64,000 nt of DNA from contig CM000435.1 in NCBI GenBank assembly GCA_000165345.1, positions 64,001 to 128,000 of the forward strand, written 5' to 3'. Position numbers and translations under genes: made by a program. The notes under the pieces are model-generated. The model saw nothing but the letters and a program-made list of their open reading frames with translations. It had not been told where the DNA came from and made no database searches. The stretch's first letter is position 1; every line of letters starts with the position of its first letter. Below, one piece after another: positions 1,960-63,074 of the stretch.

Positions 1960-2994
1960 TTCTTCAAATTAAGTAATTAACCTTGTGATTTGTATTTTTC
2001 TTAAATTTAAACTCATATAAACTATTAAAAAAATTAATCTCTTCCTTCTGAGTAAGAGCCAAATGCCAATAAGTTAATCCTTTTCCTTATTTAGCCTGTC
2101 CACTTAATTTTGCCACAACATAAGCTTTCTCTTAATATGTAGAAGTTTTAGTATAGTTTGATTTCTTTTTTACCTATATTGCGAAAAAAAATAACAATTC
2201 ACACTGCCAGGAGGCGAACCAAAAACTCTTCTTCTGATAAATCCTCTTCCACTAATCAATATTTCACGTGGTGGTATCTGCCACATGTAAAAAAACATTA
2301 CTAACACACTCTGCACACCCCACATTGCCCGCCCAATTCTTGCATGCACCTCACAAATTAATGTCGATAATCATTTTAATGAATGTTTTAGCAAATTAAC
2401 AATTTATTGGAATTAATTATAGCCACTAAAAAATATTATTAAGTAAAATAGTTTAATCTAAATGAGAAATATGGCCTGAGATTTAAGTCTGTTCAACATT
2501 TATTCTGGAAAAAATTATTGTTGGATGTAGCAGAGTAAATGGTAGAACTTAAATCGAGTAATGAATATTTTCTAAGAAAGTGAAATTATATGGTATGACA
2601 TTTCGTGCACCATATTTCTATTTTCTGTTCTTGTTACATCTTCATATCTCGTTTTAAAATAATTTTTTCCCATTTTATTTCTTTATTATAGTCAAAACTA
2701 AGGCGGGCACGTGTGGGTTATGTAATTTTTGTTCCACTAGCATGGAGGGAAATAATTAAATTTTAGTGTGGAAACAAAAATTGTCACTTATGAAAGGAAG
2801 AATTTATTAATATATATTTTTTTTCCTTACTTAGAGTTATTGCACATTCTTCTTTATTTAATTAAATTAAAAGAGCTGAAAGATGCTGATGGTTTGACAG
2901 GTTTAAGTTTGCTAGCCATTAATTAACTTTTTTGAGTAAGAATAAGTTAGACGGAGTATAATTTAGCTTTTTTTTTGTTTACATTAAGAAAAAA

Positions 2995-4935: not shown

Positions 4936-5094
4936 TTAGCTCACAAAATATTATAGTAGACAATATTTTATAAGTTATGAAAAGTTTTAATAGCATGTCT
5001 AGTTATATTATTTTCAAAAAAAAAAAAAAACGCCGTTTTTACATTTCATTTTAACTTTTTTAATCATTCAATTTATATTTTGCCGGTATGCTTT

Positions 5095-5171
5095 ACTGCG
5101 CATGCATATTATTTAAAAAAATATTTACTACATGCGCATGTATGTGGACAGGTCAAAAAGTTGCATGCAAC
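5095..5171. promoter_or_regulatory. Cluster of GCATGC-type motifs (GCGCATGCATA, CATGCGCATGTATGTGGAC, TTGCATGCAAC) upstream of the LCCL gene
   Basis: Three GCATG(C) copies within 80 nt, 70-140 nt upstream of the ATG at 5239. Similar clusters at 12356-12437, 23695-23715, 30147-30425, 47325-47340 and 62467-62545, all 5' of genes. Confidence 0.55.
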
Positions 5172-5238
5172 AAATTTCTTAAAAAAACTTAATTAGAGCA
5201 GATTAGTAAAAAAGAGTAGGGAGTATTTTCTAGAAAAT

Positions 5239-16686: not shown

Positions 16687-18885
16687 TTATATTTCTCCTT
16701 GGTCTGTGTATACTATTTTCCCTGGAGGGTCATAATTGAATTTTGGCTCGATTTTCATAAGTTTTTTGAGAATTTCACATGCTCTTTCATCTTCAGGAGA
16801 CATATTCTCCATATTTTTGCGGGGGCTTTGTATCTGGTTCTTTTCATGAACTTGGTTTTTCTCTCCCAAGGTATCTAGATTTCCAGGTTGAGTAACTCCA
16901 TTATAAGGTTCTTCAATTTGATCATTTTGGCTCATCTTAGAAACTTTATTTTCATTATTTTCATCGAAGGCGTTATTTTCTTCTTTGAATTCCAAGTTAA
17001 GGGGGATCTTCTGATCAGTATTGGAGTTAGAAGTTTGCTCGATCTCATTCTTCAAATCTTCCTTTAGGGGTTCTAGAAGCTTTTCATGAGTAATAACTAT
17101 AATATTCTCTCCATTTTCGTGCTCTTGTGGCTTTAAGTGCAATTCCAATGTCGAAGCCTTCTCTTCACCACTTTGGTCGGAACGGACTGCAACATTTCCC
17201 GCCTGGTCATGTGGAAGTGCATGCAATTGCATGCTAAGGCTATCCTCGGATTTTGGTAGAATGGCGGGACAGTGTTCTGAAGGTGATTCGGGCATACAAT
17301 TAGAACCACATGGTTTTTTTCCGGAAATATTTTCAGGGGGGGTTTGTTGCGATGCGGAGAGGAGGGGGTTTTGATGCAAGGAGTTTATTTCAATATCTGG
17401 ATTCTGAGTCTGGTTCTCAACTTGTCTATGTGAGAATTCAGTATAGCTTGGCGAGATTGTTTGAATTTGACACTCCTCATGAGCTTCTTTGTGAGCCAAT
17501 TCTGCTGTTGTAGAAGTCTCTGTAGTTATTTGTACCTGCGTTTGATTTCTGGATTGCGTAGAGCTGGTAGAAAGTACAGTATTATTTTCATCATTTTGGT
17601 CTTCATCAGAATTACTAGAACGTTTGAGGTCTGAAATAATGATAAATGACTCAGATGTATTGTTTACACTAGAGTTAGAAAGATTTTCCGTAAATTCGTG
17701 ATCGTTTTCTGGTATTGTAGCCTCCCTTAAGCATTGAACTGGATTTATTGAAAAATCTGGGATGTTCTGGCGACCTGAATTGATCAAAGCCTGTTCAATA
17801 ATGCCTTGTTTTTCATCAAATGAAGATTCTTCTGACTGCTTAATTCTATAAAGATCAAAAGAGTAATCTTTAACAAGCAAATCTTCTCTAGGAATTTCAT
17901 CTAACTGAGGTTCTAGTTGCTGTTGATCATTGCCTTTGTTATAGCAACTATCTTTATCCTTATCTTCGTCCCCGTGTAAGAAATCTTTCGATATAACTTC
18001 ATGTTCTTCTTTTAAATTAAACTGGATCGTTTCTTTTCCATTATTATTTTGAATGATTACCTCTATATATGTAATGTTTCCATGGTGAGGCTTTGAAAAT
18101 GATACCTCTTTTTCTCTGAGAGGAATATCGTATAATGGACCTGCAGCAATATCACATCCTAGTAAACCCTTGCCTCCCCAGCCCGAATTAGGAGTTATAA
18201 ATATCTCCCTAGTAACTTCAGTCTCGGTGTTATATACAACAAGAGATAAAGGGACTTTATCATTTTTCTTAACAAATACTAAGAAGTCGTCAGTTGAATA
18301 GAATGGTCTCATTAATGTGCTGCTTGCGACTATGTAATCTTCATTTGATATCAGTCCAGCGGCCTGAGCAGGAGATGAATCTTGAATATTCACAACTCGA
18401 ATCCCTTTTGTAGATATTTCTTCCCAATGGACTCCAATACCGAGCCCAGATATTCGCTCATCGTAACTTAAGAATTGGTAAACTCTAAGGGAATTCAAAG
18501 GAGCATCAAATTCAACCATATTAGACTCAATCCCATCAACAAATGCATTCTTTCCTAGCCCATCCTTTTCAGATTCGACTGAGAATCTCCTATTAGGTAT
18601 ATTACCCTCATTATTTTCATTGTGTTTATGTGGATTAAGTATTATAGTTCTTATTCTGGTCGACAAAGAATTGTAGATATTTATTTTTACTTGATGCCTT
18701 CCAATCCCTTTCAATCTTTTCAAAAAAAAGTCATGAGAAGCATCTGAAACCTGAGTTAGAGGAACTCCATCAATCCCTACAATATAATCAAAGCTTCTTT
18801 CCAATTCTAAAAGTCTTCCAAGACTATTTTCTCCGTAATTGCATACGCGAAACCCTCCAAGTTGTTTGGTTTGCGCACCTCCCAT
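16687..18885 (-). CDS. Golgi reassembly stacking protein (GRASP) homolog, N-myristoylated, with long low-complexity C-terminal region
   Basis: 732 aa with ATG at 18883-18885. MGGAQ N-myristoylation start. Tandem GRASP PDZ-like domains (GIDGVPL..., GLGIGVHWEE..., REIFITPNSGWGGKGLLGCDIAAGPLYDIP matches the GRASP55/65 '[26 protein letters not shown]' block). Ser/Pro/Gln/Glu-rich tail. Confidence 0.75.
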   Translation of the reverse strand: MGGAQTKQLGGFRVCNYGENSLGRLLELERSFDYIVGIDGVPLTQVSDASHDFFLKRLKGIGRHQVKINIYNSLSTRIRTIILNPHKHNENNEGNIPNRRFSVESEKDGLGKNAFVDGIESNMVEFDAPLNSLRVYQFLSYDERISGLGIGVHWEEISTKGIRVVNIQDSSPAQAAGLISNEDYIVASSTLMRPFYSTDDFLVFVKKNDKVPLSLVVYNTETEVTREIFITPNSGWGGKGLLGCDIAAGPLYDIPLREKEVSFSKPHHGNITYIEVIIQNNNGKETIQFNLKEEHEVISKDFLHGDEDKDKDSCYNKGNDQQQLEPQLDEIPREDLLVKDYSFDLYRIKQSEESSFDEKQGIIEQALINSGRQNIPDFSINPVQCLREATIPENDHEFTENLSNSSVNNTSESFIIISDLKRSSNSDEDQNDENNTVLSTSSTQSRNQTQVQITTETSTTAELAHKEAHEECQIQTISPSYTEFSHRQVENQTQNPDIEINSLHQNPLLSASQQTPPENISGKKPCGSNCMPESPSEHCPAILPKSEDSLSMQLHALPHDQAGNVAVRSDQSGEEKASTLELHLKPQEHENGENIIVITHEKLLEPLKEDLKNEIEQTSNSNTDQKIPLNLEFKEENNAFDENNENKVSKMSQNDQIEEPYNGVTQPGNLDTLGEKNQVHEKNQIQSPRKNMENMSPEDERACEILKKLMKIEPKFNYDPPGKIVYTDQGEI

Positions 18886-23558: not shown

Positions 23559-24606
23559 AACTAAGGTTGTAAGAGGAACTCCTGTTGCCCTTCATTTTTG
23601 AATTAACTAGGACTAGTCATATTAAGTAATAAACTTTTTTTCAAGAAAATTTTTTTATCTTGCAAATTTTCTCTCAGGGTCTTGTCCACATAAATTCTCG
23701 TGCATGCATTTCATGCAAACTGACTTATGTGGGTTGCATGGCTTTCTCAACGGTATATGACACTTTTGGGCGCCACACACAGTATGTGGAATATGAGCGC
23801 GTTAGTCAGAATTAATAATGTTTTTTGTGGTGGGTGAAAATAGACTAGAGAATTACGTAATACTGAACAGAATTAATATAGCATTATAAAAATGTGTGTG
23901 AGACGCAGTGTTTGGTCTAAATAATTGCAGTCTTGATTGTGAAGGAAAAGAATACAAAACTGAGGGGGGTGGGGAAAGGTAAATTTTACACATACAACTA
24001 ACTCCAATAAATACATATATACATGTATATGTACATATATATGTATACATATATATGTACATATAATATTCAGAGAGAGGAAAACGGTGAGTTTGGAGTA
24101 AAATAGGCAAGATAATAAAGGTATTTGTTTTCAATTCTGTCTAAAGTTACCGTTTTTTGCTCTGGGTTTAAGAATTAATTGTTGAGCTATAAGCAAATTA
24201 CCTCATTGATGAAAGTTTAAGAGGATAGAAGAAGAAATCGAACATATTTTTATCCCAGAAAAAAAGTAGATTAGTGATTATTTGTCAGAGTTATAATCAT
24301 ACAGCTTTTGAAAAAAGAATCAGGTAAATAATGCAACATAAGTAAAATTTGAAGTTACTAATTAAAAACTTTTGGATTAAAAATTATATGAATTTTATTG
24401 CTCTTTCAAGTAATACCAGCAAATATATTTAAATAAAATATCATATTTTCGTTTATTAAGGGCGATCTCTATAGTTTTTTAAATACAGATATTGGGGGAA
24501 ATACTCATTCGGAGATTCCCGTTAACAGTTAAAATATTTCGATATATACTAACTATTACAGGCTTTAAATCATATTCACTTGTCAAAGCCGCAAGAATAT
24601 AGAGAA

Positions 24607-26442
24607 ATGGCATCAATATTATCAAGTTTCTCCTCTCAATATAATGAACTATGGAAAGCAATCATAAGACCTCCAAGAGACAGATATAGTATTCGTGATT
24701 TAGGCCCAATGCGTTTTGCAATTGGAAAGTCAATATTTAAGAGATCAGACTTCACTCTAAGAAATCGTCGCTTCCAAGCTCTTCATTGCAGTCATTTTGA
24801 GCCTATTGATAATGAAAGGCAATCTGAGTCTCTTCCTTGCGTAATTTACCTTCACGGAAATTGCAGTTCAAGGAGAGAGGCTCTTCCATATATTCCGTTA
24901 CTTCTTCCAATCGGAATTACTGTTATGGCTGTCGATTTGAGTGGTTCTGGTCTCTCTGATGGAGATTATATAAGTTTGGGATACCACGAAAAAGATGATC
25001 TTTCAGTCTTGGTTGAATACTTAAGAAATTCAAAACGATGTAGCTCTGTTGGGGTTTGGGGGAGGTCCATGGGAGCTGCTACTGCATTAATGTACTCAGG
25101 AGTTGATAAGGGTGATGGATTCTTAAAAGGGATTGTCATCGATTCAAGCTTTTGCAGTCTTCGCCAGTTATGCCATGAGTTGGTTCATCATTATATCCCA
25201 TTATTACCCAATTTTCTTGTTGATTCTGCACTTTCATTTATCAAATCTACAATTAATGATAAAGCAAAGGTTAATATTGACGATATTGCTCCAATTAAGT
25301 CTGTTGGTCAATGCAAGGTCCCTGCTTTGTTTATTTCTGGAACTAATGATACATTGGTTAATCCAAATCATTCAAAAACTTTACATGATAACTATGCTGG
25401 AGAGAAGATGCTTATGATCATCCCCGGTAATCACAATTCTGAGAGACCCAAGTTTGTTAAGGCATCGATCGTCATTTTCTTTTATACAGTATTTGATTGC
25501 TTCAATATTCCAAAATCTGCAGATGCTTTGAGGTCTTTTATAAATACGGACTTGAACCTTCTATTCAACTATGATGGACTGTATTGCGATGAAAATGGTA
25601 GAATTCCAAAGCCAATCACTCAATCTTTTTATGCTATTCAGCAATACATAAGGCACAAAACTACTAACAATGTCTCTGCTCCTATTAATAATGGATTACA
25701 AAAGAAGAATCTTGGATTTAGTAAGGAACATCTGAGAAGAGAAGACATGATTAGATCGAGTTCGAATGAATCTTTCAATGACCAAAGTCAAGGCAAAGGA
25801 ATCCAAATGCGTCCTCCAGATGTTGACAAATACATTGATCGTATGATTCCTTTAAGCAGTGAAAATATTAAGCAATCTTCATCTACAATATATTCTACTG
25901 GTGCTTCATGCTCCAGAAGTACTACTTTTGAGACTATTAGCCAGGGGTTTGAGAGGGGTGACACAATGAATACTGTAAGTTCTTTTGAGGAATTTAAAGA
26001 TACTTTTAGCCCTGTAACACAGCCAAATAGGCCATCAGGTGCAGAAAGCGGTATTGAAGAGAGGGTAGTTGGGGCTGAATTTGGGTCAGACCATTTAGAA
26101 GGAATAGTTCATTATCAAATCTCTCCTCCACCTGGAATGAAGCATGCTAACAATAATAATAGTGATAATCAACAACAGTATTTTAACCAGAATCAAAATA
26201 TTCATCAACATTCTCCTTCGTACCACCCGTATGGTCTTAACCAGAAGGGGGTTACTTATACTAATGGTGCCATAAGTAATGGAGCTAATAGTTTATTGCT
26301 TTCTACTGGAGGACTTGCTCCTTCAACTATAGGTATGAGCTCAGTTCAGCATCAGGCGCCAACAGGAGAGGGAGTCAAAAAACCAAGTATTGCTTCAAGT
26401 TTACCAAAAAGGGTAGCTAATTATAACTACCCTGGGAATTAA
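24607..26442 (+). CDS. Alpha/beta-hydrolase fold protein (ABHD/BAAT-like serine hydrolase) with long low-complexity C-terminal tail
   Basis: The tracked ORF starts at a TTG (24580). The first ATG at 24607 gives MASILSSF... Nucleophile elbow GRSMGA (GxSxG), then Asp and His candidates (TNDTLVNP..., PGNHNS). N/S/Q-rich C-terminal region of about 250 aa. Confidence 0.7.
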   Translation: MASILSSFSSQYNELWKAIIRPPRDRYSIRDLGPMRFAIGKSIFKRSDFTLRNRRFQALHCSHFEPIDNERQSESLPCVIYLHGNCSSRREALPYIPLLLPIGITVMAVDLSGSGLSDGDYISLGYHEKDDLSVLVEYLRNSKRCSSVGVWGRSMGAATALMYSGVDKGDGFLKGIVIDSSFCSLRQLCHELVHHYIPLLPNFLVDSALSFIKSTINDKAKVNIDDIAPIKSVGQCKVPALFISGTNDTLVNPNHSKTLHDNYAGEKMLMIIPGNHNSERPKFVKASIVIFFYTVFDCFNIPKSADALRSFINTDLNLLFNYDGLYCDENGRIPKPITQSFYAIQQYIRHKTTNNVSAPINNGLQKKNLGFSKEHLRREDMIRSSSNESFNDQSQGKGIQMRPPDVDKYIDRMIPLSSENIKQSSSTIYSTGASCSRSTTFETISQGFERGDTMNTVSSFEEFKDTFSPVTQPNRPSGAESGIEERVVGAEFGSDHLEGIVHYQISPPPGMKHANNNNSDNQQQYFNQNQNIHQHSPSYHPYGLNQKGVTYTNGAISNGANSLLLSTGGLAPSTIGMSSVQHQAPTGEGVKKPSIASSLPKRVANYNYPGN

Positions 26443-26844: not shown

Positions 26845-28584
26845 ATGGGGGAAGATCAAGAGTGGAGTGATTCAAGTTATGTTTTAAGAAGAAAGTATCG
26901 ATTATATTGGATTGCAATATTAAGAAATGCTCCAGAAGGACTTGAAGGATTATATGATAGATTTTCAAAATGGAGCGTTTCGTTAGGATTTTCATTACCA
27001 AATTTAGTAGAAGAGTCAGAGGAGTTGTGTATACAAAGAGGGGAAAAGAAAGTTTACAAAATTAGTTTTCCATCTAGAAGCTCTACAAGAAGCTTTATAA
27101 GACTATCAAAGCGTAATATATGGAGGGAAATATCAAGAGACAGTTATAGTGAATTATATGTATATTGTGATCCTGCATATAAATTAAGGCCATTTTGTGA
27201 TTTTCAAACAATGAATTTATCAACATGTTATTGGATAATAAGAGGAATTTCTAAAGATATTGAAAACGAAGAGATGATATGGGATTTAGTAGGACGAAGG
27301 AACCAATTTGGTGAATTCTTGAGGAGAGTAGTGTACATTAGAGATGAAGAAGGAAACAATGGTTTTTGTTTCTTGCAGTTTTCCTCACCTCTAACATCAT
27401 ATAGAGCTTTAAAGTGGGAACTTAAACATTTTAAAGGATTTGAACTTGCTCACGGTAAAAAAATGTATTTAACTCCAGAATTTGTTGGTACAAGCCATGT
27501 AAAGGCATTACTACTATTATGTAGAGGATTAGATAAGTTTGAGATAAAAACACTAAAGACAGTAGAAATGAGTTTGAATGATTTAAGAAACTCTGATAGA
27601 TTAAATGGCGAAAATGCGATTTCTCATGAAAAAGTTTTGCAAGGATATTTAAACTTTTGGAAGAGATCAAATGGTTTACCAGTTCCAGTAGATAGAAACT
27701 CAGAATTTCAATACAATTATGATGAGAGGAATGAATACATGTATAGGGAAGCTCTTTATAATAGTGGGATAGATTTATTCCCAAAAAAACCGATTAGACT
27801 TTATTACTGCAAATCTTTGGATTTTCTTTGGGACTGGAATAGTCGTATTTTTATAGATTGCCAAAGTAAATCACTTTTTGAGTTTGATCCTGAACTTCAA
27901 AGTCTCAAGTTTATTTACAACTCAGGTGAATTGTCTCGATTATCGAATGTTGGGGTCGGCTCAACTTATGGCGAAATTATATGTGATAGAAATAATCGAG
28001 AAGATTTTCAAATAAAAGCACAAATTTCACAGGAAAAGCTCAAAAAAGAAAGAGAAATAAGAGTGGCCTCTTTTCTTGAAACTGCAAGGTCTCAGCTAAA
28101 TTGCAACATGAATACTAACAACATATATAAGAACTCAGTAGAAGAAGGATACGACTCAAAAAGACAGGAGATAACGCAGTTTTTCGATATTTCAAGTAAC
28201 GTAACTTACGAAAAGAGTGGAACCTATACAAGTCAAAGAACCGAGCCACGAACTCCTACTTGCCAAAACTCAAGTCCTGGGGTTCAAAGCTCATGCATAG
28301 CCAACGCATGCGCGGTTCCCGCCACATGCGAGTCTGAAAGTGTGGACGCGCGGAATATGTGCATGTGGTCAGTTTCTGATGGTGGAGTTACGGAGGGAAC
28401 AATAGGGGAGGAGATTGGTCAGGTAAAGAGTGGAAGTAAAAGCGGGGGCACAAAGGAGGAGGAGTTGATATGTTTTGTGTGTTGCAGGGCTTTTGGATCG
28501 ATTTGGGAAAAAGTGAATCATGAACAAAATTCATTGTTGCATAAGTATAATCTGGAGATATGGAAGGTTGGGAGCGAGCGATAG
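26845..28584 (+). CDS. Hypothetical protein with C-terminal U1/matrin-like C2H2 zinc finger (possible RNA-binding protein)
   Basis: 579 aa with ATG at 26845. A weak RRM-like segment (FCFLQFSSPLTSYRALK). C-terminal CFVCCRAFGSIWEKVNHEQNSLLH fits a CX2CX12HX6H zinc-finger spacing. GAGA/G-rich motifs lie upstream. Confidence 0.5.
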   Translation: MGEDQEWSDSSYVLRRKYRLYWIAILRNAPEGLEGLYDRFSKWSVSLGFSLPNLVEESEELCIQRGEKKVYKISFPSRSSTRSFIRLSKRNIWREISRDSYSELYVYCDPAYKLRPFCDFQTMNLSTCYWIIRGISKDIENEEMIWDLVGRRNQFGEFLRRVVYIRDEEGNNGFCFLQFSSPLTSYRALKWELKHFKGFELAHGKKMYLTPEFVGTSHVKALLLLCRGLDKFEIKTLKTVEMSLNDLRNSDRLNGENAISHEKVLQGYLNFWKRSNGLPVPVDRNSEFQYNYDERNEYMYREALYNSGIDLFPKKPIRLYYCKSLDFLWDWNSRIFIDCQSKSLFEFDPELQSLKFIYNSGELSRLSNVGVGSTYGEIICDRNNREDFQIKAQISQEKLKKEREIRVASFLETARSQLNCNMNTNNIYKNSVEEGYDSKRQEITQFFDISSNVTYEKSGTYTSQRTEPRTPTCQNSSPGVQSSCIANACAVPATCESESVDARNMCMWSVSDGGVTEGTIGEEIGQVKSGSKSGGTKEEELICFVCCRAFGSIWEKVNHEQNSLLHKYNLEIWKVGSER

Positions 28585-29817: not shown

Positions 29818-30315
29818 GAAACTACGTAAAGTACCTTGCTAAAAGATTTAGTTATATTTAATTGTTTGAATTAGAGCGGCTCCTCCTTTTATTTATTTAA
29901 TATTGTTTATATATTACAATTAATTCGGAATCCCATTAAATGAGAGTATTGCGACTATTAGGGGGGGAAAATAGGATAAGAGCTGATTATTAATCATACA
30001 TTTCATGACAAAATAGAATAACTTCTCGTAATTATTCGATAGTATGTTGTATTTTAGCAAATTCAGAAATATTTATTATTTTTTTTAGCTCAATTTGGAT
30101 TATAGAAAAAAAAGACAACCCGCCAAAATTTGGAAAATTAATATTGCATGCAGAATGTGAATAGCCAGAATAACAGAAATATTGGAAGTTATCATATTTT
30201 TAATATCCAGATTGTTTTTTAAATAAATTTCAGTAGGTATGACGGAATTAAAAATTAAAATCTGGTTCAAAATCTGAACAATTTTGAGTGTTAATAGTTA
30301 TATTATTTCATTAAA

Positions 30316-30354
<39 letters not shown>

Positions 30355-30665
30355 GACTCAATTTATACCAAAAAAAGCCAAACACTATTGCTTGCATGCA
30401 ATCTCCACGTAATATTACAAGTTGCATGGCATAATAATCCACATAGTGCATGTTTCTCGCAACCCCACTTATGTAGAATTGACTTAGAAAAAAAGTACCG
30501 AGTCATTTTTTTTTCTCACTTGATTTTAATAGTAATATAATAAATTTCAAAAGTTTCAAATCTATTTCAACAGGAAATAGCAATCAAAGCAAGAGAAGTT
30601 TGTTTTGTTACTAGTTTAATACAGGGAAGATTAAAATTAACAATTGCCGGAATTTTGTGGTCAAA

Positions 30666-41551: not shown

Positions 41552-42360
41552 CTTCAAAAAAGTGATAAGAAGAAGAAAAAAAAAAAAAAGAAGAAATAAA
41601 AGAAAAAGAATAAGTGGAGGAAGAGGAATATGAATAAGAAGAAGATGAAGAAGATGAAGAAGAAGAAGAAATATAAATCTCTAACTCACATTAATTAAAA
41701 ATATAAAATGATAATTTTCCATTCAAATCCCTAAAAACTCTTTTTCACTTTTAATATGTATCCAAAAATATTAGATTTATATCTATTTTAAATACTAGTA
41801 ATCTGGATATCAAATATTATATATATTTTCACCATTAAATAAAATATATTTAAATATTCATTAATATATCATTAATATACCAAACTTTTATTTAATATCT
41901 AAAAAATAATTTTTTACTTTTTTTTTTTTTTTTATAATATAATTTTTTTTTTATATAATACATTACCGGTATACAAGAAATAAATTTATGATTAATTGTG
42001 CAGCAGATTACCGCCAAACACGTGTTATATTGATTATCTCATTTTAAAAACAAATAATATAAATAATGAAAAAAACGAATAAAAGGATTAAATGAGTAAA
42101 GTGAATACAATATTTATAGAAAACAATAATATTTTAAATAATTGTATTTGAATGAAAAATTGTTAAACTCTTGTTTGGATTTCAGTTACTTTAAATTATT
42201 AAGGTGGAAAAAAAACAAAGAAAAAAAGTTAAGTTAAAAAAAAAAAAAAATAATCTATTAAAACAATTTTAAAGATCCAAGATAAAATAAAATTATTAAT
42301 TAATAATACAATATTTAATTTATTTGATTTCTAATTTCTTATTTCAATAAAAAAAAAATT

Positions 42361-47054: not shown

Positions 47055-47960
47055 ATTTTACTTTTAACTTCAATTTTTCTCTTTAACTCATATATTTTTT
47101 CTATTTTCCTTTCATTTATTGAAATTAATATAAATATTTCTAAGAGATTATTAATAATTAACCAAATCTTTGAAAAAAAGGGGAAAATCTATCTTTTTCT
47201 TTATTTCATCATCTTTTATGTACTAATTACTTTTTTTACCATTTTCCCCACCCTCCTTACATGCATTTTCTCCCCTTAAGTCCATTCTATTTAATAGTCT
47301 TCCACATAAATAAATAATTACGTCATTTATTGCATGCATGCATTTAATTACGTGTTTTAAAGTTATATTTTAAAATATATTACAAAAAATTATTTAATTA
47401 TTATTATACTTGAAAATTTCTTTTTTTCTTTCTTTATTAAATAATTTTAAATTGTAATGAAATATTTAAAAAATATTAATTTTAGTATAATTTTGTATTT
47501 GAACTTGACTGTGATTTGAAAAAAAAAAATCATTTATATTATTATTATAATTATTTTTTAACCAATATTAAATTATTATGTGCATTATAATAAAATTAAC
47601 GCAATTCTCCCGCTAAAATTGTTATATTGATTGACTGGTAATTTGGTTATCGAGACAATTTTAATAATACTTTCAAACTTGTTTAATAATAATATTTTGA
47701 ATTACTAGGAATATTATATTAAAATAATTCAGAATCACCATACTTTTTATTTTTTAACAATTTGATAAAAAAGATCATCTTTTTTTTTCTTCGAATTATC
47801 AACAATTCAAGACGAACTCCGAACTTAAAATTAATTTAGCCATAAATTATCGAAGGAAACCTCAATCAATTAAAAATAACTACTTTATCTTTTTAATTAA
47901 TATAATGATTTTTAATTTTAACAAATTATTTGATAACGGATATAAAATTGGTAACAAAAA

Positions 47961-51836: not shown

Positions 51837-52450
51837 ACCAGTAATTAAAACCATGGCCTTGAATGTTATTTTATCTATTGGAAAATTATATTTACTCGTT
51901 AAGCTTGTTTTAAATAACATTCTCTATACATAAAATAATCCAATAAAATTTGGAAAGCAAATAAAAGTTTTGTATTGAAAACTTTTTTTTTGGTTTGATA
52001 ATAAAATTTAACTTGAGAATTTTGGATTCAACTTGTGCTTTTTGGGTTTTTGTATATTTAATTTGAATTTATCTTTTTGTAGAAAACTCCTAAATTAATA
52101 ACATTAGTAAACTTATTTGATTTAGCTTTGTAAAGTATTCTTTTATTTTCATAAGACTCTTTCCATATAAAGATGAATTTTTAAATAGAAAAAAATAAAC
52201 AAAACTCTAAATTTCTAATACTTGATTAATTCCTAATGAATAAAATGGTTAAAAAAGTCAACACAGACTAATGCATTGCGCGCCTTCCATGTGGACGCGC
52301 ATGCAAAAACTTTTTAGAGCACATGCGGAAACGCCAGTAAAAAAAAAGGAAAATCAGTACCGGTGTAAACGTGTGAAAACAAATAAACTAAAAACTTGAT
52401 TGCATGCAAAAAATTCCAATAAAATTATGAATTTGGAGCATTTAAATTAT

Positions 52451-54785: not shown

Positions 54786-55675
54786 CTTTAATATAAAAAA
54801 AATAAATAAATGCTTTGAAAACAAAAATTCGCTTTAATTAAACTTAATTAAATAATAGTGATTCTTATCTCTTTTTTTGTCCTCTAATAATTATACATGT
54901 GTGGATTTCTGTACGCAAAAAAATATCTTTAATATCCATAATATTTTTATTATTTAAATTTATCTTTAATTAGGTATGCTTACGTTACTAGGCGGGCATC
55001 ATGTTTTGTTTATTTTAGATTTTTTTTTATTCAAAAATACCATATTTTTTTCTGGAATCTCATTCTTTAAATATAATTCCAAGAAATTATCAATGTTAAT
55101 TCAACTAACCCTACTGACTAGCTTGCTTGCTTGCAGTTTACATTATTTATATACCCTTCGATATCAAAATTTTGATTATCTTAAAGCTAATTGTGATAGC
55201 TTATCCACCCCTTTACCCCTCTAATTATAAGATTTTAATTCTTAATTATTGCATGTAAATACCGGTATGCAATTTTTGCAAAAATAGTCGTATTATTATT
55301 TTTTATATTTTGCATCAATTTTTTTTTCTTTTTAAATAAAAATTGTCCACATTAAATTTTTAAATTACGTGTGAATTTATCAAAAAAATATATATTTTAT
55401 TTCACGGATTCTTGAAATTATGAAATAAAAATTAGGAATAATTTATAAGAACGTAGAAATAATAATAATAATACTAATACACAAGCTATTTGAATGTTAA
55501 AGTATTTTTCAAAATTTAACTGAATTTAATAATTTTGAAAAATATTTTGCAAGTAAATATTTGAGCGCACAGATATAATTAAAAACAAAAAATTAAAAGT
55601 GAAAAATAATTAACTTTTTTTTTTTTTAATCGTTATCAAGGGAATTAAAAGTGGAATATAGATATTTTTATCAAA

Positions 55676-58253: not shown

Positions 58254-58269
58254 TTGGCGCCGGCGCCAA
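58254..58269. promoter_or_regulatory. Double E2F-like palindrome TTGGCGCCGGCGCCAA in the divergent RPAP2-like/RPC11 promoter
   Basis: Two overlapping GGCGCC cores form a 16-bp perfect palindrome 48 nt upstream of the RPC11 ATG. Confidence 0.6.
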
Positions 58270-62383: not shown

Positions 62384-63074
62384 ATTTAATTCCCACACTT
62401 TTTAAAAGTTATGTACATATATATTTATATAAATATATATATTCCTTCTGCTCACAATACATCATATTATTTGCATGCATTTTGTTCATGCGGGATGCCA
62501 CTTCTACAACATTTCGAGCATAACATTTTTTTTTGCATGCATTCCACATGAATTATTATTAATTAGTATATAAATTAATTGATGCCACGTAATAATTACG
62601 TCATTTTAATATATATTTTTTTTTAATAATATGAATTTTATTTCCAATTTTTTTACTAAATTTTTTTTAAAACTATTTATGAGAATTAAGAATATGGTTA
62701 CAACTAATTTATTATATTTAAATGATTCGGGTGGGATTTAAATTCTGGCTAATTAATTAAAATTCAGCTAGATTTTTTGGACATAAATATTTACAAACAA
62801 AAAATTTATCAAAGTTAAACATGACATTTCTCCTATACCGGAATAATCACATGTGTGTGGCGCTTAAATTAATTTAATTGGGAAAAAACATTCTTTGAAT
62901 ATAAAACCAATTTTTTAAAGTAAATATAATATATTGAAACAATATTAAGTACATAATTATATTTATAAAAGTTAGAGATTAGAAAAAATAAGTAAAAAAA
63001 AAGGTAATAGTCGGCAAAGAGACTTGTAACAATAATTATATTTGAGCTATGCAGTAAAATTATTGTAATTATAA

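What the first reader, a model, noticed from the sequence alone, without database searches (positions are those of the whole stretch)
5095..5171. GCATGC promoter motif is recurrently partnered with an ATGTGGAC / TGTGGACGCGC element
Besides the abundant GCATGC (TGCATGCA) clusters, the same neighbouring word recurs next to them. TATGTGGACAGG lies at 5139. GTCCACATAAA, the reverse complement of TTTATGTGGAC, lies at 23691, with a palindromic CCACATAA...TTATGTGG arrangement around two GCATGC copies. CATGTGGACGCGCATGC lies at 52291 and GTGTGGACGCGCGG at 28338 (both share the 11-mer TGTGGACGCGC). TATGTGGAT/CATGTGGAA variants lie at 30428 and 62535. This looks like a composite, two-factor element rather than isolated GCATGC sites.
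Basis: seen in the sequence. Interest (0 to 1): 0.55.

Follow-up and report, generated by a model that had tools for sequence, protein, structure and literature searches.

The report
Second promoter motif in Cryptosporidium female genes
In this Cryptosporidium parvum chromosome 7 segment, the known GCATGC promoter motif is repeatedly accompanied by a second, evolutionarily conserved word, CATGTGGA(C/T)A, and the pair (often with a third word, ATACCGGTAT) marks promoters of genes switched on in female gametes.

Summary
The window is C. parvum chromosome 7 (cgd7_280 to about cgd7_540), and the flagged site is the promoter of CpCCP2 (cgd7_300), a female-specific gene that a 2025 review lists as AP2-F-dependent.

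- **Co-location.** ATGTGG is the top-ranked 6-mer near GCATGC, in the whole window and in intergenic DNA alone. All 8 intergenic ATGTGGA copies sit in GCATGC or TGCATG clusters.
- **Conservation.** The word is kept in orthologous promoters of C. canis, C. bovis, C. ubiquitum and C. muris.
- **Independent set.** In 64 published macrogamont-specific promoters, ATGTGGAC occurs 14 times against 0.19 expected. It co-occurs with TGCATG and with ATACCGGTAT.
- **Motif limits.** The consensus is K-CATGTGGA-Y-A-A, distinct from the G-box-like TGTGGGG.
- **Grammar.** Spacing and orientation relative to GCATGC are variable. This is a flexible multi-motif module, not a rigid composite element.
- **Factor.** The binding protein is unknown; none of the 18 tabulated C. 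parvum ApiAP2 primary motifs matches.
- **Precedent.** One 2013 supplementary table lists TTGTATGTGGAAA, filed as G-box-like.

Verdict: a real, apparently undescribed member of a known kind of element. Moderately interesting and directly testable.

The parts
5082..5089 (.). GCCGGTAT, a near-copy of the palindromic ATACCGGTAT element, in the cgd7_300 (CpCCP2) promoter
   Evidence: ACCGGT is conserved at this place in C. canis, C. bovis and C. muris. In 64 female promoters ACCGGTAT occurs 16 times against 0.11 expected.
5097..5107 (.). TGCGCATGCAT, the distal AP2_1 (GCATGC) site of the CpCCP2 promoter
   Evidence: It is conserved in C. canis; C. bovis and C. muris have TGCATG at the same place.
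5130..5141 (.). ACATGCGCATGT, degenerate GCATG half-sites abutting the ATGTGGAC element
   Evidence: C. canis has GCATGTGCATGC and C. muris has ATGCATGTATGTATGCATG here.
5142..5150 (+). ATGTGGACA, the second motif (consensus K-CATGTGGA-Y-A-A), 97 nt upstream of the CpCCP2 ATG (5239)
   Evidence: It is retained as CATGTGGACAGG in C. canis, AATGTGGATGA in C. bovis and CATGTGGACTG in C. muris.
5162..5169 (.). TGCATGCA, the proximal AP2_1 site of the CpCCP2 promoter
   Evidence: It is conserved in C. canis.
2281..2288 (-). CCACATGT (ACATGTGG on the minus strand) in the divergent cgd7_280 kinase / cgd7_290 Rad21-Rec8 promoter
   Evidence: CACATGT is invariant in all four species in alignment A2. 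Both genes are labelled female-specific in the Hasan 2024 S3 file.
2318..2325 (-). CCCCACAT (ATGTGGGG), the G-box-like TGTGGGG class overlapping ATGTGG
   Evidence: It is conserved in C. bovis and C. muris; C. canis has CCCCACAG.
2341..2348 (.). TGCATGCA in the same divergent promoter, next to the E2F-like CCCGCC at 2328-2333
   Evidence: It is invariant in four species.
17208..17234 (+). CATGTGGAAGTGCATGCAATTGCATGC, a promoter-like cluster inside the GRASP55/65 coding sequence (minus-strand gene), flanked by CCCGCC (17198) and GGCGGG (17263)
   Evidence: C. ubiquitum keeps the E2F and GCATGC words here but not ATGTGG.
23684..23791 (.). Cluster upstream of cgd7_370: GTCCACAT (23684-23691, minus), TGCATGCA (23701-23708), ATGTGGG (23727-23733), ACGGTATA (23750-23757), GGCGCC (23769-23774), ATGTGGAA (23784-23791)
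   Evidence: The CGGTATA..GGCGCC..GTATGTGGAAT block is conserved in C. ubiquitum. cgd7_370 is labelled female-specific.
28306..28368 (.). Cluster inside the 3' end of the cgd7_380 coding sequence: GCATGC, TTCCCGCC (E2F-like)/CCACAT, TGTGGACGCGCGG, GCATGTGG
   Evidence: C. ubiquitum keeps ATGTGG three times plus GGCGCC but not GCATGC. The first A of the motif is absent here (GTGTGGAC).
30393..30445 (.). cgd7_390/cgd7_400 intergenic cluster: TGCATGCA (30393-30400), CCACGTAA, TTGCATGG, ATCCACATA (30437-30445, minus)
   Evidence: The whole block is conserved in C. ubiquitum. cgd7_400 is one of the 65 macrogamont genes of Hasan 2024.
47300..47342 (.). TTCCACAT (minus-strand ATGTGGAA) .. TTACGTCA .. 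TGCATGCATGCA, upstream of the P-type ATPase cgd7_460
   Evidence: The ATGTGG word is not conserved in C. ubiquitum, C. canis or C. xiaoi, although GCATGC is.
52278..52408 (.). Cluster in the convergent gap between the ATPase and MDH 3' ends: GCGCGC, CATGTGGAC (52288-52296), GCGCATGCA (52297-52305), TACCGGT (52358-52364), TGCATGCA (52401-52408)
   Evidence: The 16-mer ATGTGGACGCGCATGC and ACCGGT are identical in C. ubiquitum. C. canis has CCATGTGGATGCATGC plus ACCGGC.
55250..55373 (.). LDH (cgd7_480) / cgd7_490 divergent promoter: TGCATG, ATACCGGTAT (55259-55268), a decayed GCAT-CAA, TGTCCACAT (55344-55352, minus), TTACGTGTG (55365-55373)
   Evidence: All blocks are conserved in C. ubiquitum and C. 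canis, where the second site is an intact GCATGC.
62472..62550 (.). TGCATGCA (62472-62479) and TGCATGCATTCCACATG (62534-62550; ATGTGGAA on the minus strand abuts GCATGC)
   Evidence: No orthologous locus was fetched for this end of the window.

Best explanation
CATGTGGA(C/T)A(A) is a genuine, selectively maintained cis-regulatory word of Cryptosporidium promoters. It is most likely the binding site of a sequence-specific DNA-binding protein other than the AP2 domains that read TGCATGCA.

It does not act as a fixed-geometry composite site. It is one component of a short heterotypic motif cluster of roughly 50-150 bp. The other components are one to three TGCATGCA sites, frequently the palindrome ATACCGGTAT, and sometimes TTACGTG or E2F-like words.

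These clusters sit upstream of genes expressed in female gametes (macrogamonts). In this window those are CpCCP2/cgd7_300, cgd7_280/290, cgd7_370 and cgd7_400.

TGCATGCA-like sites are the listed primary motif of at least six C. parvum AP2 proteins, which are expressed at different stages. GCATGC alone therefore cannot specify a stage. The partner words plausibly supply that specificity through combinatorial occupancy.

**Shown:** existence, enrichment, co-location, conservation, distinctness from the G-box, and association with a female-specific gene set.

**Inferred:** protein binding, an activating role, and the identity of the factor.
For: **Organism and genes.**
- The window maps to C. 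parvum chromosome 7.
- The published cgd7_300 promoter equals window 4936-5238.

**Co-location with GCATGC.**
- ATGTGG is the top-ranked 6-mer near GCATGC, in intergenic DNA alone (8 of 16, P=2e-6) and window-wide (10 of 40, P=3e-8).

**Conservation by inspection of alignments.**
- The CpCCP2 promoter keeps ACCGGT, GCATG(C) and ATGTGGA in C. canis, C. bovis and C. muris.
- The cgd7_280/290 promoter keeps CCACATGT, CCCCACAT and TGCATGCA in all four species.
- The 52.3 kb and 55.3 kb clusters are kept in C. ubiquitum and C. canis.

**Conservation by alignment statistics.**
- C. parvum against C. ubiquitum: TGTGGA is conserved at 6 of 9 sites against a 12% background (P=2e-4). It is among the ten best-conserved non-coding 6-mers, alongside TGCATG, E2F words and CCGGTA.
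- C. parvum against C. canis: GTGGAC is conserved at 3 of 4 sites and TGTGGA at 4 of 8 (both P=1e-3).

**Independent genome-wide set: 64 macrogamont-specific promoters (Hasan 2024 S6).**
- CATGTGGA occurs 17 times against 0.25 expected.
- ATGTGGAC occurs 14 times against 0.19 expected.
- ACCGGTAT occurs 16 times against 0.11 expected.
- ATGTGGA promoters all carry TGCATG (18 of 18 against 28 of 46, P=8e-4).
- They are enriched for CCGGTA (12 of 18 against 8 of 46, P=3e-4).
- The median distance to GCATGC is 29 nt, against 91 nt for random placement.

**Distinct from the G-box.**
- The flanks of TGTGG are coupled: A_TGTGG_A 23 times and non-A_TGTGG_G 12 times (odds ratio 55, P=9e-6).

**Stage association.**
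- cgd7_280, 290, 300 and 370 are labelled female-specific.
- Five of the 7 AP2-F-dependent genes named in a 2025 review carry ATGTGGA, against 13 of 57 other macrogamont genes (P=0.016).
Against:
- The 64 published promoter sequences are truncated to their distal ~390 nt, so counts are lower bounds and positions relative to the start codon are incomplete.
- I had no genome-wide non-female promoter background. Expectations come from shuffles and from this window.
- The cross-species loci are orthologous to the window, so they show conservation rather than independent replication.
- Conservation is not universal. The sites at 47302, 23686 and 23727 are not kept in C. ubiquitum. Most sites other than the two deep promoters are lost in C. 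bovis, C. xiaoi and C. andersoni.
- Three clusters (17.2, 28.3 and 52.3 kb) lie in coding sequence or between two gene 3' ends, where no annotated promoter is expected.
- LDH (cgd7_480), which flanks the 55.3 kb cluster, is labelled asexual-specific.
- About a quarter of the sites read GCATGTGG and so overlap an AP2 half-site. A single-factor reading is therefore not excluded.
Confidence: 0.75

Rival explanations
1. One-factor reading. ATGTGGA(Y)A is not a separate factor's site. It is an extended or variant site of the same GCATGC-reading AP2 proteins, for example a second AP2 domain of AP2-F or cgd2_3490. The published degenerate TGCATG(T/C)(G/A) motif partly reflects this.
For: - Nine of 35 ATGTGG sites in the female set are GCATGTGG.
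- Five to six of the 11 TGCATGTG occurrences continue as GGA[CT]A or GGC.
- C. muris has TGCATGTGGAC in the CpCCP2 promoter.
- AP2-F-dependent genes are enriched for the word (P=0.016).
- Hasan 2024 reported TGCATGYR for the same gene set.
Against: - Most sites (26 of 35) are not preceded by GC. The preferred preceding bases are [T/G]C.
- The word lacks the palindromic GCATGC core.
- The tabulated primary motifs of AP2-F and cgd2_3490 are AP2_1-like only.
- The word occurs up to 45 nt or more away from any GCATGC, on either side.
Confidence: 0.2
2. GCATGC and ATGTGGAC form a composite element in which two factors bind cooperatively at a defined spacing and orientation.
For: - A subset of sites is tightly juxtaposed: ATGTGGA-N2-3-GCATGC at 17209, 52289 and 62543 in the window.
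- GCATGC(A)-N3-9-ATGTGGA occurs in cgd6_200, cgd7_5050, cgd8_4290, cgd2_3970 and cgd6_3280.
- The 10-nt offset at 52289 is identical in C. ubiquitum.
Against: - Signed offsets are spread from -42 to +45 with both sides about equally used (16 against 14). No offset holds more than 3 of 30 pairs.
- Spacing changes between species at the same promoter: 21 nt in C. parvum, 20 nt in C. canis, and rearranged in C. bovis and C. muris.
Confidence: 0.1
3. [quoted passage not shown] The known co-occurrence of G-box-like and AP2_1 motifs then explains the finding.
For: - Oberstaller 2013 filed TTGTATGTGGAAA (cluster 124) under Motif 2. That cluster also has TTGCATGCATAC in 100% of its genes.
- The paper noted that 16 of 54 G-box clusters also carry AP2_1.
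- The sites at 2320 and 23727 in the window read ATGTGGGG and ATGTGGGT.
- cgd8_810 is female-specific.
Against: - The flank coupling shows two classes sharing only TGTGG (odds ratio 55, P=9e-6).
- ATGTGGAYA has no G run, whereas the cgd8_810 motif is G.GGGG.
Confidence: 0.08
4. An RNA-level element. The word acts in the 5' UTR of maternal mRNAs, for storage or translational repression in female gametes, rather than as a DNA site.
For: - Orientation is biased toward the sense strand in the female set (17 against 6, P=0.035).
- Translational repression and maternal mRNA storage are documented in Cryptosporidium females.
- UGUGGAUA loosely recalls Pumilio-type UGUA-N-AUA elements. This point rests on my own knowledge and was not tested.
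Against: - About a quarter of sites are antisense, including conserved ones (2281, 2318, 30437, 55344).
- Sites lie up to ~870 nt upstream of the start codon and in shared divergent promoters.
- The only reported female RNA-binding-protein motif is CAMCAACAR, in coding sequence.
Confidence: 0.05
5. Chance or compositional artefact. G+C-containing words pile up in the less AT-rich islands that also hold GCATGC.
For: - ATGTGGAC alone in the window is only 4 against 0.9 expected, with 2 of 100 shuffles reaching 4.
Against: - ATGTGG ranks first of about 1,700-2,000 6-mers in an unbiased test.
- The enrichment is about 70-fold in an independent promoter set.
- The word is conserved across species.
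Confidence: 0.02

Closest known systems
AP2_1 motif, 5'-TGCATGCA-3' (bound in vitro by C. parvum cgd2_3490 and cgd1_3520, and by Plasmodium PF14_0633/AP2-Sp; reported as TGCATGYR in macrogamont promoters by Hasan 2024)
   Same: It occurs in the same promoters, the same short clusters and the same female-specific gene set. Some sites overlap as TGCATGTGGA.
   Different: The sequence differs: it is non-palindromic and has no GCATGC core. It is an orphan with no assigned protein. It is present in only a subset (18 of 64) of the TGCATG-rich female promoters.
[quoted passage not shown]
   Same: It shares the TGTGG core. It was noted in 2013 to co-occur with AP2_1 in 16 of 54 clusters. One ATGTGGA-type MEME consensus (cluster 124) was filed in this family.
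   Different: The flanks are mutually exclusive: A-TGTGG-AYA against [T/G/C]-TGTGG-GG (odds ratio 55). The word has no G run.
Heterotypic clusters of transcription-factor sites (cis-regulatory modules) with flexible grammar, as in other eukaryotic promoters; in Apicomplexa, cooperative AP2 pairs such as TgAP2XI-5/AP2X-5
   Same: Several different short words lie within about 100 bp. Order and spacing vary, turnover between species keeps the same parts, and the clusters are associated with one expression programme.
   Different: Cooperative binding or protein-protein contact has not been shown here, and two of the three words have no known binding protein.
E2F/DP site, [C/G]GCGC[G/C], of Cryptosporidium
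   Same: It co-occurs in several of the clusters (2328, 17198, 23769, 28318, 52278).
   Different: It is not part of the ATGTGGA word. At 52290 the CGC belongs to GCGCATGC.

Membership tests
AP2_1 (TGCATGCA) site | Palindromic GCATGC core | tested here: not met
   The consensus from 23 sites is K-C-ATGTGGA-Y-A-A. Only 9 of 35 ATGTGG sites are preceded by GC.
AP2_1 (TGCATGCA) site | Bound by the AP2 domains of cgd2_3490 or cgd1_3520 in protein-binding microarrays | not testable with these tools
   The microarray 8-mer data of Oberstaller 2014 are not held as text. The review table lists only AP2_1-like as the primary motif for these proteins.
[quoted passage not shown] | A run of at least 4 G following TGT or G | tested here: not met
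   After TGTGG the ATGTGG class has A in 23 of 33 sites (G in only 5). The TGTGGGG class is mostly preceded by a base other than A (8 of 10). Fisher P=9e-6.
Rigid composite element (two sites at fixed spacing and orientation) | A dominant signed offset between the two words | tested here: not met
   Thirty pairs span -42 to +45, with no offset holding more than 3 pairs, and 16 upstream against 14 downstream.
Heterotypic cis-regulatory module | Different words co-occur within a short distance more often than chance | tested here: met
   The median ATGTGGA-to-GCATGC distance is 29 nt against 91 nt for random placement. Co-presence with CCGGTA has P=3e-4.
Heterotypic cis-regulatory module | The words are conserved in orthologous non-coding DNA | tested here: met
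   TGTGGA is conserved at 6 of 9 sites against a 12% background in C. ubiquitum. Two promoters are conserved as far as C. muris.
Heterotypic cis-regulatory module | Association with a co-expressed gene set | tested here: met
   Enrichment is about 70-fold in 64 macrogamont-specific promoters. Window genes next to clusters are labelled female-specific. No matched non-female genome-wide background was available.
Heterotypic cis-regulatory module | Occupancy by proteins and an effect on transcription | not testable with these tools
   This needs reporter mutagenesis, CUT&RUN or pull-down experiments.
E2F/DP site (for the CGCGC extension) | [C/G]GCGC[G/C] core | tested here: inconclusive
   GGACGCGCGG at 28341 contains CGCGCG, which matches. 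GGACGCGCATGC at 52290 contains CGCGCA, which does not match; there the bases belong to GCGCATGC (with the motif definition).

The most novel reading that the evidence does not exclude
CATGTGGA(C/T)A and the palindrome ATACCGGTAT are the sites of two so far unassigned DNA-binding activities. These could be unassayed domains of AP2-F, or non-AP2 proteins. Together with TGCATGCA they would form a three-word "female gamete" promoter code. That code has been maintained since the deepest split of the genus (C. parvum to C. muris) and specifies crystalloid-body, oocyst-wall and meiotic genes.
Probability: 0.45. Interest if true: 0.7.

Novelty: new member of a known kind. Interest (0 to 1): 0.6.

Why it matters
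How stage-specific transcription is achieved in Cryptosporidium is an open question. The TGCATGCA-like motif is the listed primary motif of at least six AP2 proteins with different expression windows, so it cannot by itself explain female-specific expression.

A conserved partner word would give a concrete, mutable handle on that specificity. So would a third word, ATACCGGTAT. Both mark the promoters of crystalloid-body, oocyst-wall and meiosis genes.

These are the genes needed for oocyst formation and transmission, and they include the reported AP2-F targets. The words supply bait sequences for identifying the missing factors. They also suggest a way to design minimal female-specific promoters for transgenic work.

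Tried and rejected
**Literature searches**
- I searched for TGTGG, CCACAT, TGTGGA and ACCGGT together with Cryptosporidium or ApiAP2. Only primers and unrelated hits came back, apart from Oberstaller 2013.
- Text searches of Campbell 2010, Oberstaller 2014 and Mullapudi 2007 found none of the words. Logos in figures cannot be searched.
- The supplement of Oberstaller 2014 is not held.
- Tandel 2019 and Tandel 2023 contain no promoter-motif analysis.
- The sporozoite ATAC-seq preprint reports only E2F and poly-T motifs and no AP2 motifs.

**Antisense-RNA promoter idea**
- I tried to link the intragenic and convergent clusters (17.2, 28.3 and 52.3 kb) to published antisense or long non-coding RNAs through the supplement of Li 2021. 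No cgd7 identifiers were found.
- The idea rests only on that paper's statement that such promoters carry E2F and AP2_1 motifs.

**Candidate factor**
- I considered the early-female zinc-finger protein F-ZF (cgd4_1360). It is dispensable for the life cycle and nothing links it to DNA binding.

**Replication in other species**
- Repeating the k-mer test separately in each non-parvum locus gave only weak signals: rank 3 in C. bovis, nominal or absent elsewhere. Each locus has only 2-12 GCATGC sites.

- RNA-family, protein-structure and bacterial-collection tools were not used, because they do not bear on a eukaryotic promoter word.
Full report
**Where we are**

The window has 30% G+C and is packed with long ORFs (most genes lack introns). 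Exact-protein look-ups place it on a 1.36-Mb Cryptosporidium parvum chromosome: CP141124.1, with window position equal to record position minus 104,898.

The gene order includes an HSP70, a P-type ATPase and the tandem MDH/LDH pair. The published promoter of cgd7_300 is identical to window 4936-5238. So this is chromosome 7, running from cgd7_280 to about cgd7_540.

The finding's coordinates (5095-5171) lie in the 303-bp promoter of cgd7_300. This gene encodes CpCCP2, a 1,674-aa LCCL-domain protein.
- A 2025 review lists it among the crystalloid-body genes whose transcription depends on the female factor AP2-F (primary paper).
- The Hasan et al. 2024 data label it strongly female-specific.

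**Checking the observation**

The one error is at 23.7 kb, which has one exact GCATGC plus half-sites, not two copies.

| Word | Observed in window | Expected from shuffles |
|---|---|---|
| GCATGC | 22 | 4.6 |
| ATGTGGA | 18 | 8.6 |
| ATGTGGAC | 4 | 0.9 |

For every 6-mer I compared its count within 50 nt of a GCATGC (core masked) with its total count. ATGTGG/CCACAT came first of about 2,000 words in the whole window (10 of 40, P=3e-8). It also came first of about 1,700 words when only intergenic DNA was used (8 of 16, P=2e-6) (earlier version).

Of the 8 intergenic ATGTGGA copies, 7 lie within 80 nt of GCATGC, a zone covering 10.7% of intergenic DNA (P=1e-6). The eighth (55346) sits in a cluster with TGCATG at 55250. 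The second GCATGC of that cluster has lost one base in C. parvum but is intact in two other species.

**Conservation**

I fetched syntenic loci from six species:
- C. canis, C. bovis and C. muris around CpCCP2;
- C. ubiquitum, C. bovis and C. andersoni around cgd7_370;
- C. ubiquitum, C. canis and C. xiaoi around the ATPase.

Gene order is identical in nearly all loci.

*Promoters conserved across the genus.*
- The CpCCP2 promoter keeps the same parts in all four species examined. These are ACCGGT, then GCATG(C) sites, then CATGTGGACAGG (C. canis), AATGTGGATGA (C. bovis) or CATGTGGACTG (C. muris).
- The divergent cgd7_280/cgd7_290 promoter keeps CCACATGT, CCCCACAT, an E2F-like word and TGCATGCA in all four species, as clear footprints in otherwise diverged sequence.

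*Clusters conserved among closer relatives.*
- The cluster at 52.3 kb has the identical 16-mer ATGTGGACGCGCATGC plus ACCGGT in C. ubiquitum, and CCATGTGGATGCATGC plus ACCGGC in C. canis.
- The cluster at 55.3 kb keeps TGCATG-AAAT-ACCGGTA, TTTGCATGCAA, TGTCCACA and TTACGTGTG in three species.
- The 23.7 kb and 30.4 kb clusters are kept in C. ubiquitum.

*Alignment statistics.* I aligned all orthologous intergenic regions. Between C. parvum and C. ubiquitum the background conservation of 6-mers is 12%.

| Comparison | Word | Conserved sites | P |
|---|---|---|---|
| C. ubiquitum | TGTGGA | 6 of 9 | 2e-4 |
| C. ubiquitum | ATGTGG | 5 of 11 | 6e-3 |
| C. canis | GTGGAC | 3 of 4 | 1e-3 |
| C. canis | TGTGGA | 4 of 8 | 1e-3 |

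TGTGGA is among the ten best-conserved non-coding words in C. ubiquitum, in the company of TGCATG, E2F words, CCGGTA and ACGTAA.

*Limits.* Conservation is not universal. The sites at 47302, 23686 and 23727 are not kept. Most clusters other than the two deep promoters are not recognisable in C. bovis, C. xiaoi or C. andersoni. ATGTGG copies that are not near GCATGC (16466, 16506, 53694) are not conserved.

**An independent genome-wide test**

Supplementary file S6 of Hasan et al. 2024 gives promoter sequences of 65 genes. The authors selected them as macrogamont-specific from drug-perturbation RNA-seq. The cells are truncated to the distal ~390 nt. I analysed 64 sequences totalling 22,295 nt at 24.6% G+C.

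Against 300 dinucleotide-preserving shuffles, three word families dominate.

| Family | Word | Observed | Expected |
|---|---|---|---|
| Known AP2 site | TGCATGCA | 39 | 0.51 |
| Palindrome | ACCGGTAT | 16 | 0.11 |
| Palindrome | TACCGGTA | 8 | 0.04 |

ATGTGGA is present in 18 of 64 promoters.
- All 18 have TGCATG, against 28 of 46 without the word (P=8e-4).
- 12 of 18 have CCGGTA, against 8 of 46 (P=3e-4).
- The median distance to the nearest GCATGC is 29 nt, against 91 nt for random placement in the same promoters.

Examples include:
- COWP8: TTCATGTGGACAAA ... ATACCGGTATGC ... GCATGCATTCATGTGGATAA;
- NIMA kinase 5: GCATGCATACATGTGGACATGC ... GCATGTGGATAGGCCGGTATA;
- cgd7_5130: TGCATGTGGACACCGGTATA;
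- cgd8_920, cgd6_3280, cgd3_1540, cgd1_990, cgd4_690 and cgd8_4290.

Hasan et al. reported only the top DREME motif, TGCATG(T/C)(G/A). About half of the TGCATGTG instances in this set continue as the second word.

**What the motif is and is not**

From 23 non-redundant sites the consensus is [T/G]-C-A-T-G-T-G-G-A-[C/T]-A-A.

[quoted passage not shown] Among 49 TGTGG sites the flanks are tightly coupled. A_TGTGG_A occurs 23 times and non-A_TGTGG_G 12 times, with only 6 mixed cases (odds ratio 55, P=9e-6).

- At 28341 the CGCGCG is an E2F-like core.
- At 52290 the bases begin GCGCATGC, a frequent extended AP2 site.

There is no fixed geometry. Across 30 ATGTGGA/GCATGC pairs the signed offsets run from -42 to +45, with 16 upstream and 14 downstream. 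No offset is used more than three times, although about a third of pairs lie within 9-16 nt. Spacing also drifts between species at the same promoter.

Orientation relative to the gene is sense-biased, 17 against 6 (P=0.035), but both orientations occur and are conserved. Positions range from about 90 to about 870 nt upstream of the start codon. That fits a factor-binding site rather than a core-promoter or initiator element.

**Most likely mechanism**

The shown facts are enrichment, clustering, conservation, distinct identity and association with female-specific genes. They fit a transcription-factor site that works in a flexible heterotypic cluster with TGCATGCA and ATACCGGTAT.

The review table lists an AP2_1-like primary motif for at least six C. 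parvum AP2 proteins. These include asexual, non-stage-specific and female-specific ones. GCATGC alone therefore cannot encode stage. I infer that the partner words add that information.

The binding protein is unknown. None of the 18 tabulated AP2 primary motifs matches either orphan word.

AP2-F-dependent genes are somewhat enriched for ATGTGGA: 5 of 7 against 13 of 57 other macrogamont genes (P=0.016, on truncated sequences). AP2-F, through an unassayed domain or a partner, is therefore a reasonable candidate. This is inference only.

**Odd placements**

Three clusters are not at annotated promoters.
- One is inside the GRASP coding sequence (17.2 kb).
- One is inside the 3' end of cgd7_380 (28.3 kb).
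- One is between the converging 3' ends of the ATPase and MDH genes (52.3 kb). This one is conserved in two species.

Li et al. 2021 reported that antisense and long non-coding RNAs in C. parvum start preferentially at gene 3' ends, from promoters carrying E2F and AP2_1 motifs. That would fit, but I could not confirm transcripts at these places.

**Prior knowledge and novelty**

GCATGC/TGCATGCA is long known. Oberstaller et al. 2013 noted that 16 of 54 G-box-like clusters also carry AP2_1 motifs. Their Table S3 lists, for cluster 124, the MEME consensus TTGTATGTGGAAA in 88% of genes, beside TTGCATGCATAC in 100% of genes. They filed it under the G-box-like family. The word was therefore glimpsed but not recognised as separate.

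I found no description of any of the following in the searchable literature, including a 2025 review of Cryptosporidium cis-elements:
- CATGTGGAYA as a distinct element;
- ATACCGGTAT as an element;
- their conservation across the genus;
- their link to female promoters.

I rate this a new member of a known kind of feature.

**Limitations**
- The published promoter sequences are truncated.
- I had no matched genome-wide non-female background.
- The orthologous loci are not independent samples.
- The stage labels come from one paper's supplement.
- There are no binding or functional data.

Noticed in passing
window 5082-5089, 41964-41971, 52358-52364, 55259-55268; also 12377: A palindromic word, ATACCGGTAT, recurs in the same clusters as GCATGC and ATGTGGA. 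It is conserved across species: 4 of 5 sites in C. ubiquitum and 4 of 7 in C. canis. In 64 female-specific promoters ACCGGTAT occurs 16 times against 0.11 expected. It is absent from published Cryptosporidium motif lists and has no assigned factor.
   Followed up: partly
window 30404-30411, 47318-47325, 52370-52378, 55365-55373: TTACGTG/ACGTAA-type words accompany several clusters. ACGTAA is conserved at 7 of 11 sites against C. ubiquitum (P=8e-5). The same AAATTACGTGTGA string appears in the unlinked cgd6_3280 promoter. FIRE found CACGTA/TACGTG in 2013, but it was lumped into the G-box-like family.
   Followed up: partly
window 17198-17268 (inside the GRASP55/65 coding sequence) and 28306-28368 (inside the cgd7_380 coding sequence): Dense promoter-like clusters (E2F-like CCCGCC/GGCGGG, GCATGC, ATGTGG) lie inside annotated coding sequence. 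They may be internal or antisense promoters, or the gene models may be over-extended. C. ubiquitum keeps the E2F words at both places, GCATGC only at the first, and ATGTGG only at the second.
   Followed up: partly
window 52272-52410: A conserved motif cluster lies in the 614-nt gap between the converging 3' ends of the ATPase (cgd7_460) and MDH (cgd7_470) genes, where no annotated gene needs a promoter. It is a candidate for an unannotated or antisense transcript.
   Followed up: partly
window ~55312 compared with L014 17438 and L015 17364: C. parvum has TTTGCAT-CAA where C. ubiquitum and C. canis have TTTGCATGCAA. This is a one-base loss in an otherwise conserved AP2 site in the LDH/cgd7_490 divergent promoter. 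LDH is labelled asexual-specific in the Hasan 2024 data.
   Followed up: no
window 58256-58267; L014 20316-20327; L015 20284-20295: The double palindrome GGCGCCGGCGCC (two overlapping E2F-type sites) in the short RPAP2/RPB9 divergent promoter is identical in C. parvum, C. ubiquitum and C. canis.
   Followed up: no
window 23559-24606 and 24607-26442: The cgd7_370 model is 611 aa in C. parvum, but its orthologues are 545 aa in C. bovis and 502 aa in C. andersoni, aligning to only 76% of the query. The motif cluster lies ~900 nt upstream of the annotated ATG and only ~125 nt after the HSP70 stop. This suggests a long 5' UTR, a different start, or an unannotated transcript.
   Followed up: no
L008 and L015 (C. 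canis): The C. canis loci have 43-45% G+C, against 29-32% in the other five species, yet they retain the AT-containing motif words at orthologous positions.
   Followed up: no
window 29818-30665: Hasan 2024 list the cgd7_400 promoter as 579 nt starting at 29818, after trimming annotated 5' UTRs. This would put the annotated transcript start near 30397, at the TGCATGCA site, and would place ATCCACAT (30437) inside the 5' UTR on the antisense strand.
   Followed up: no
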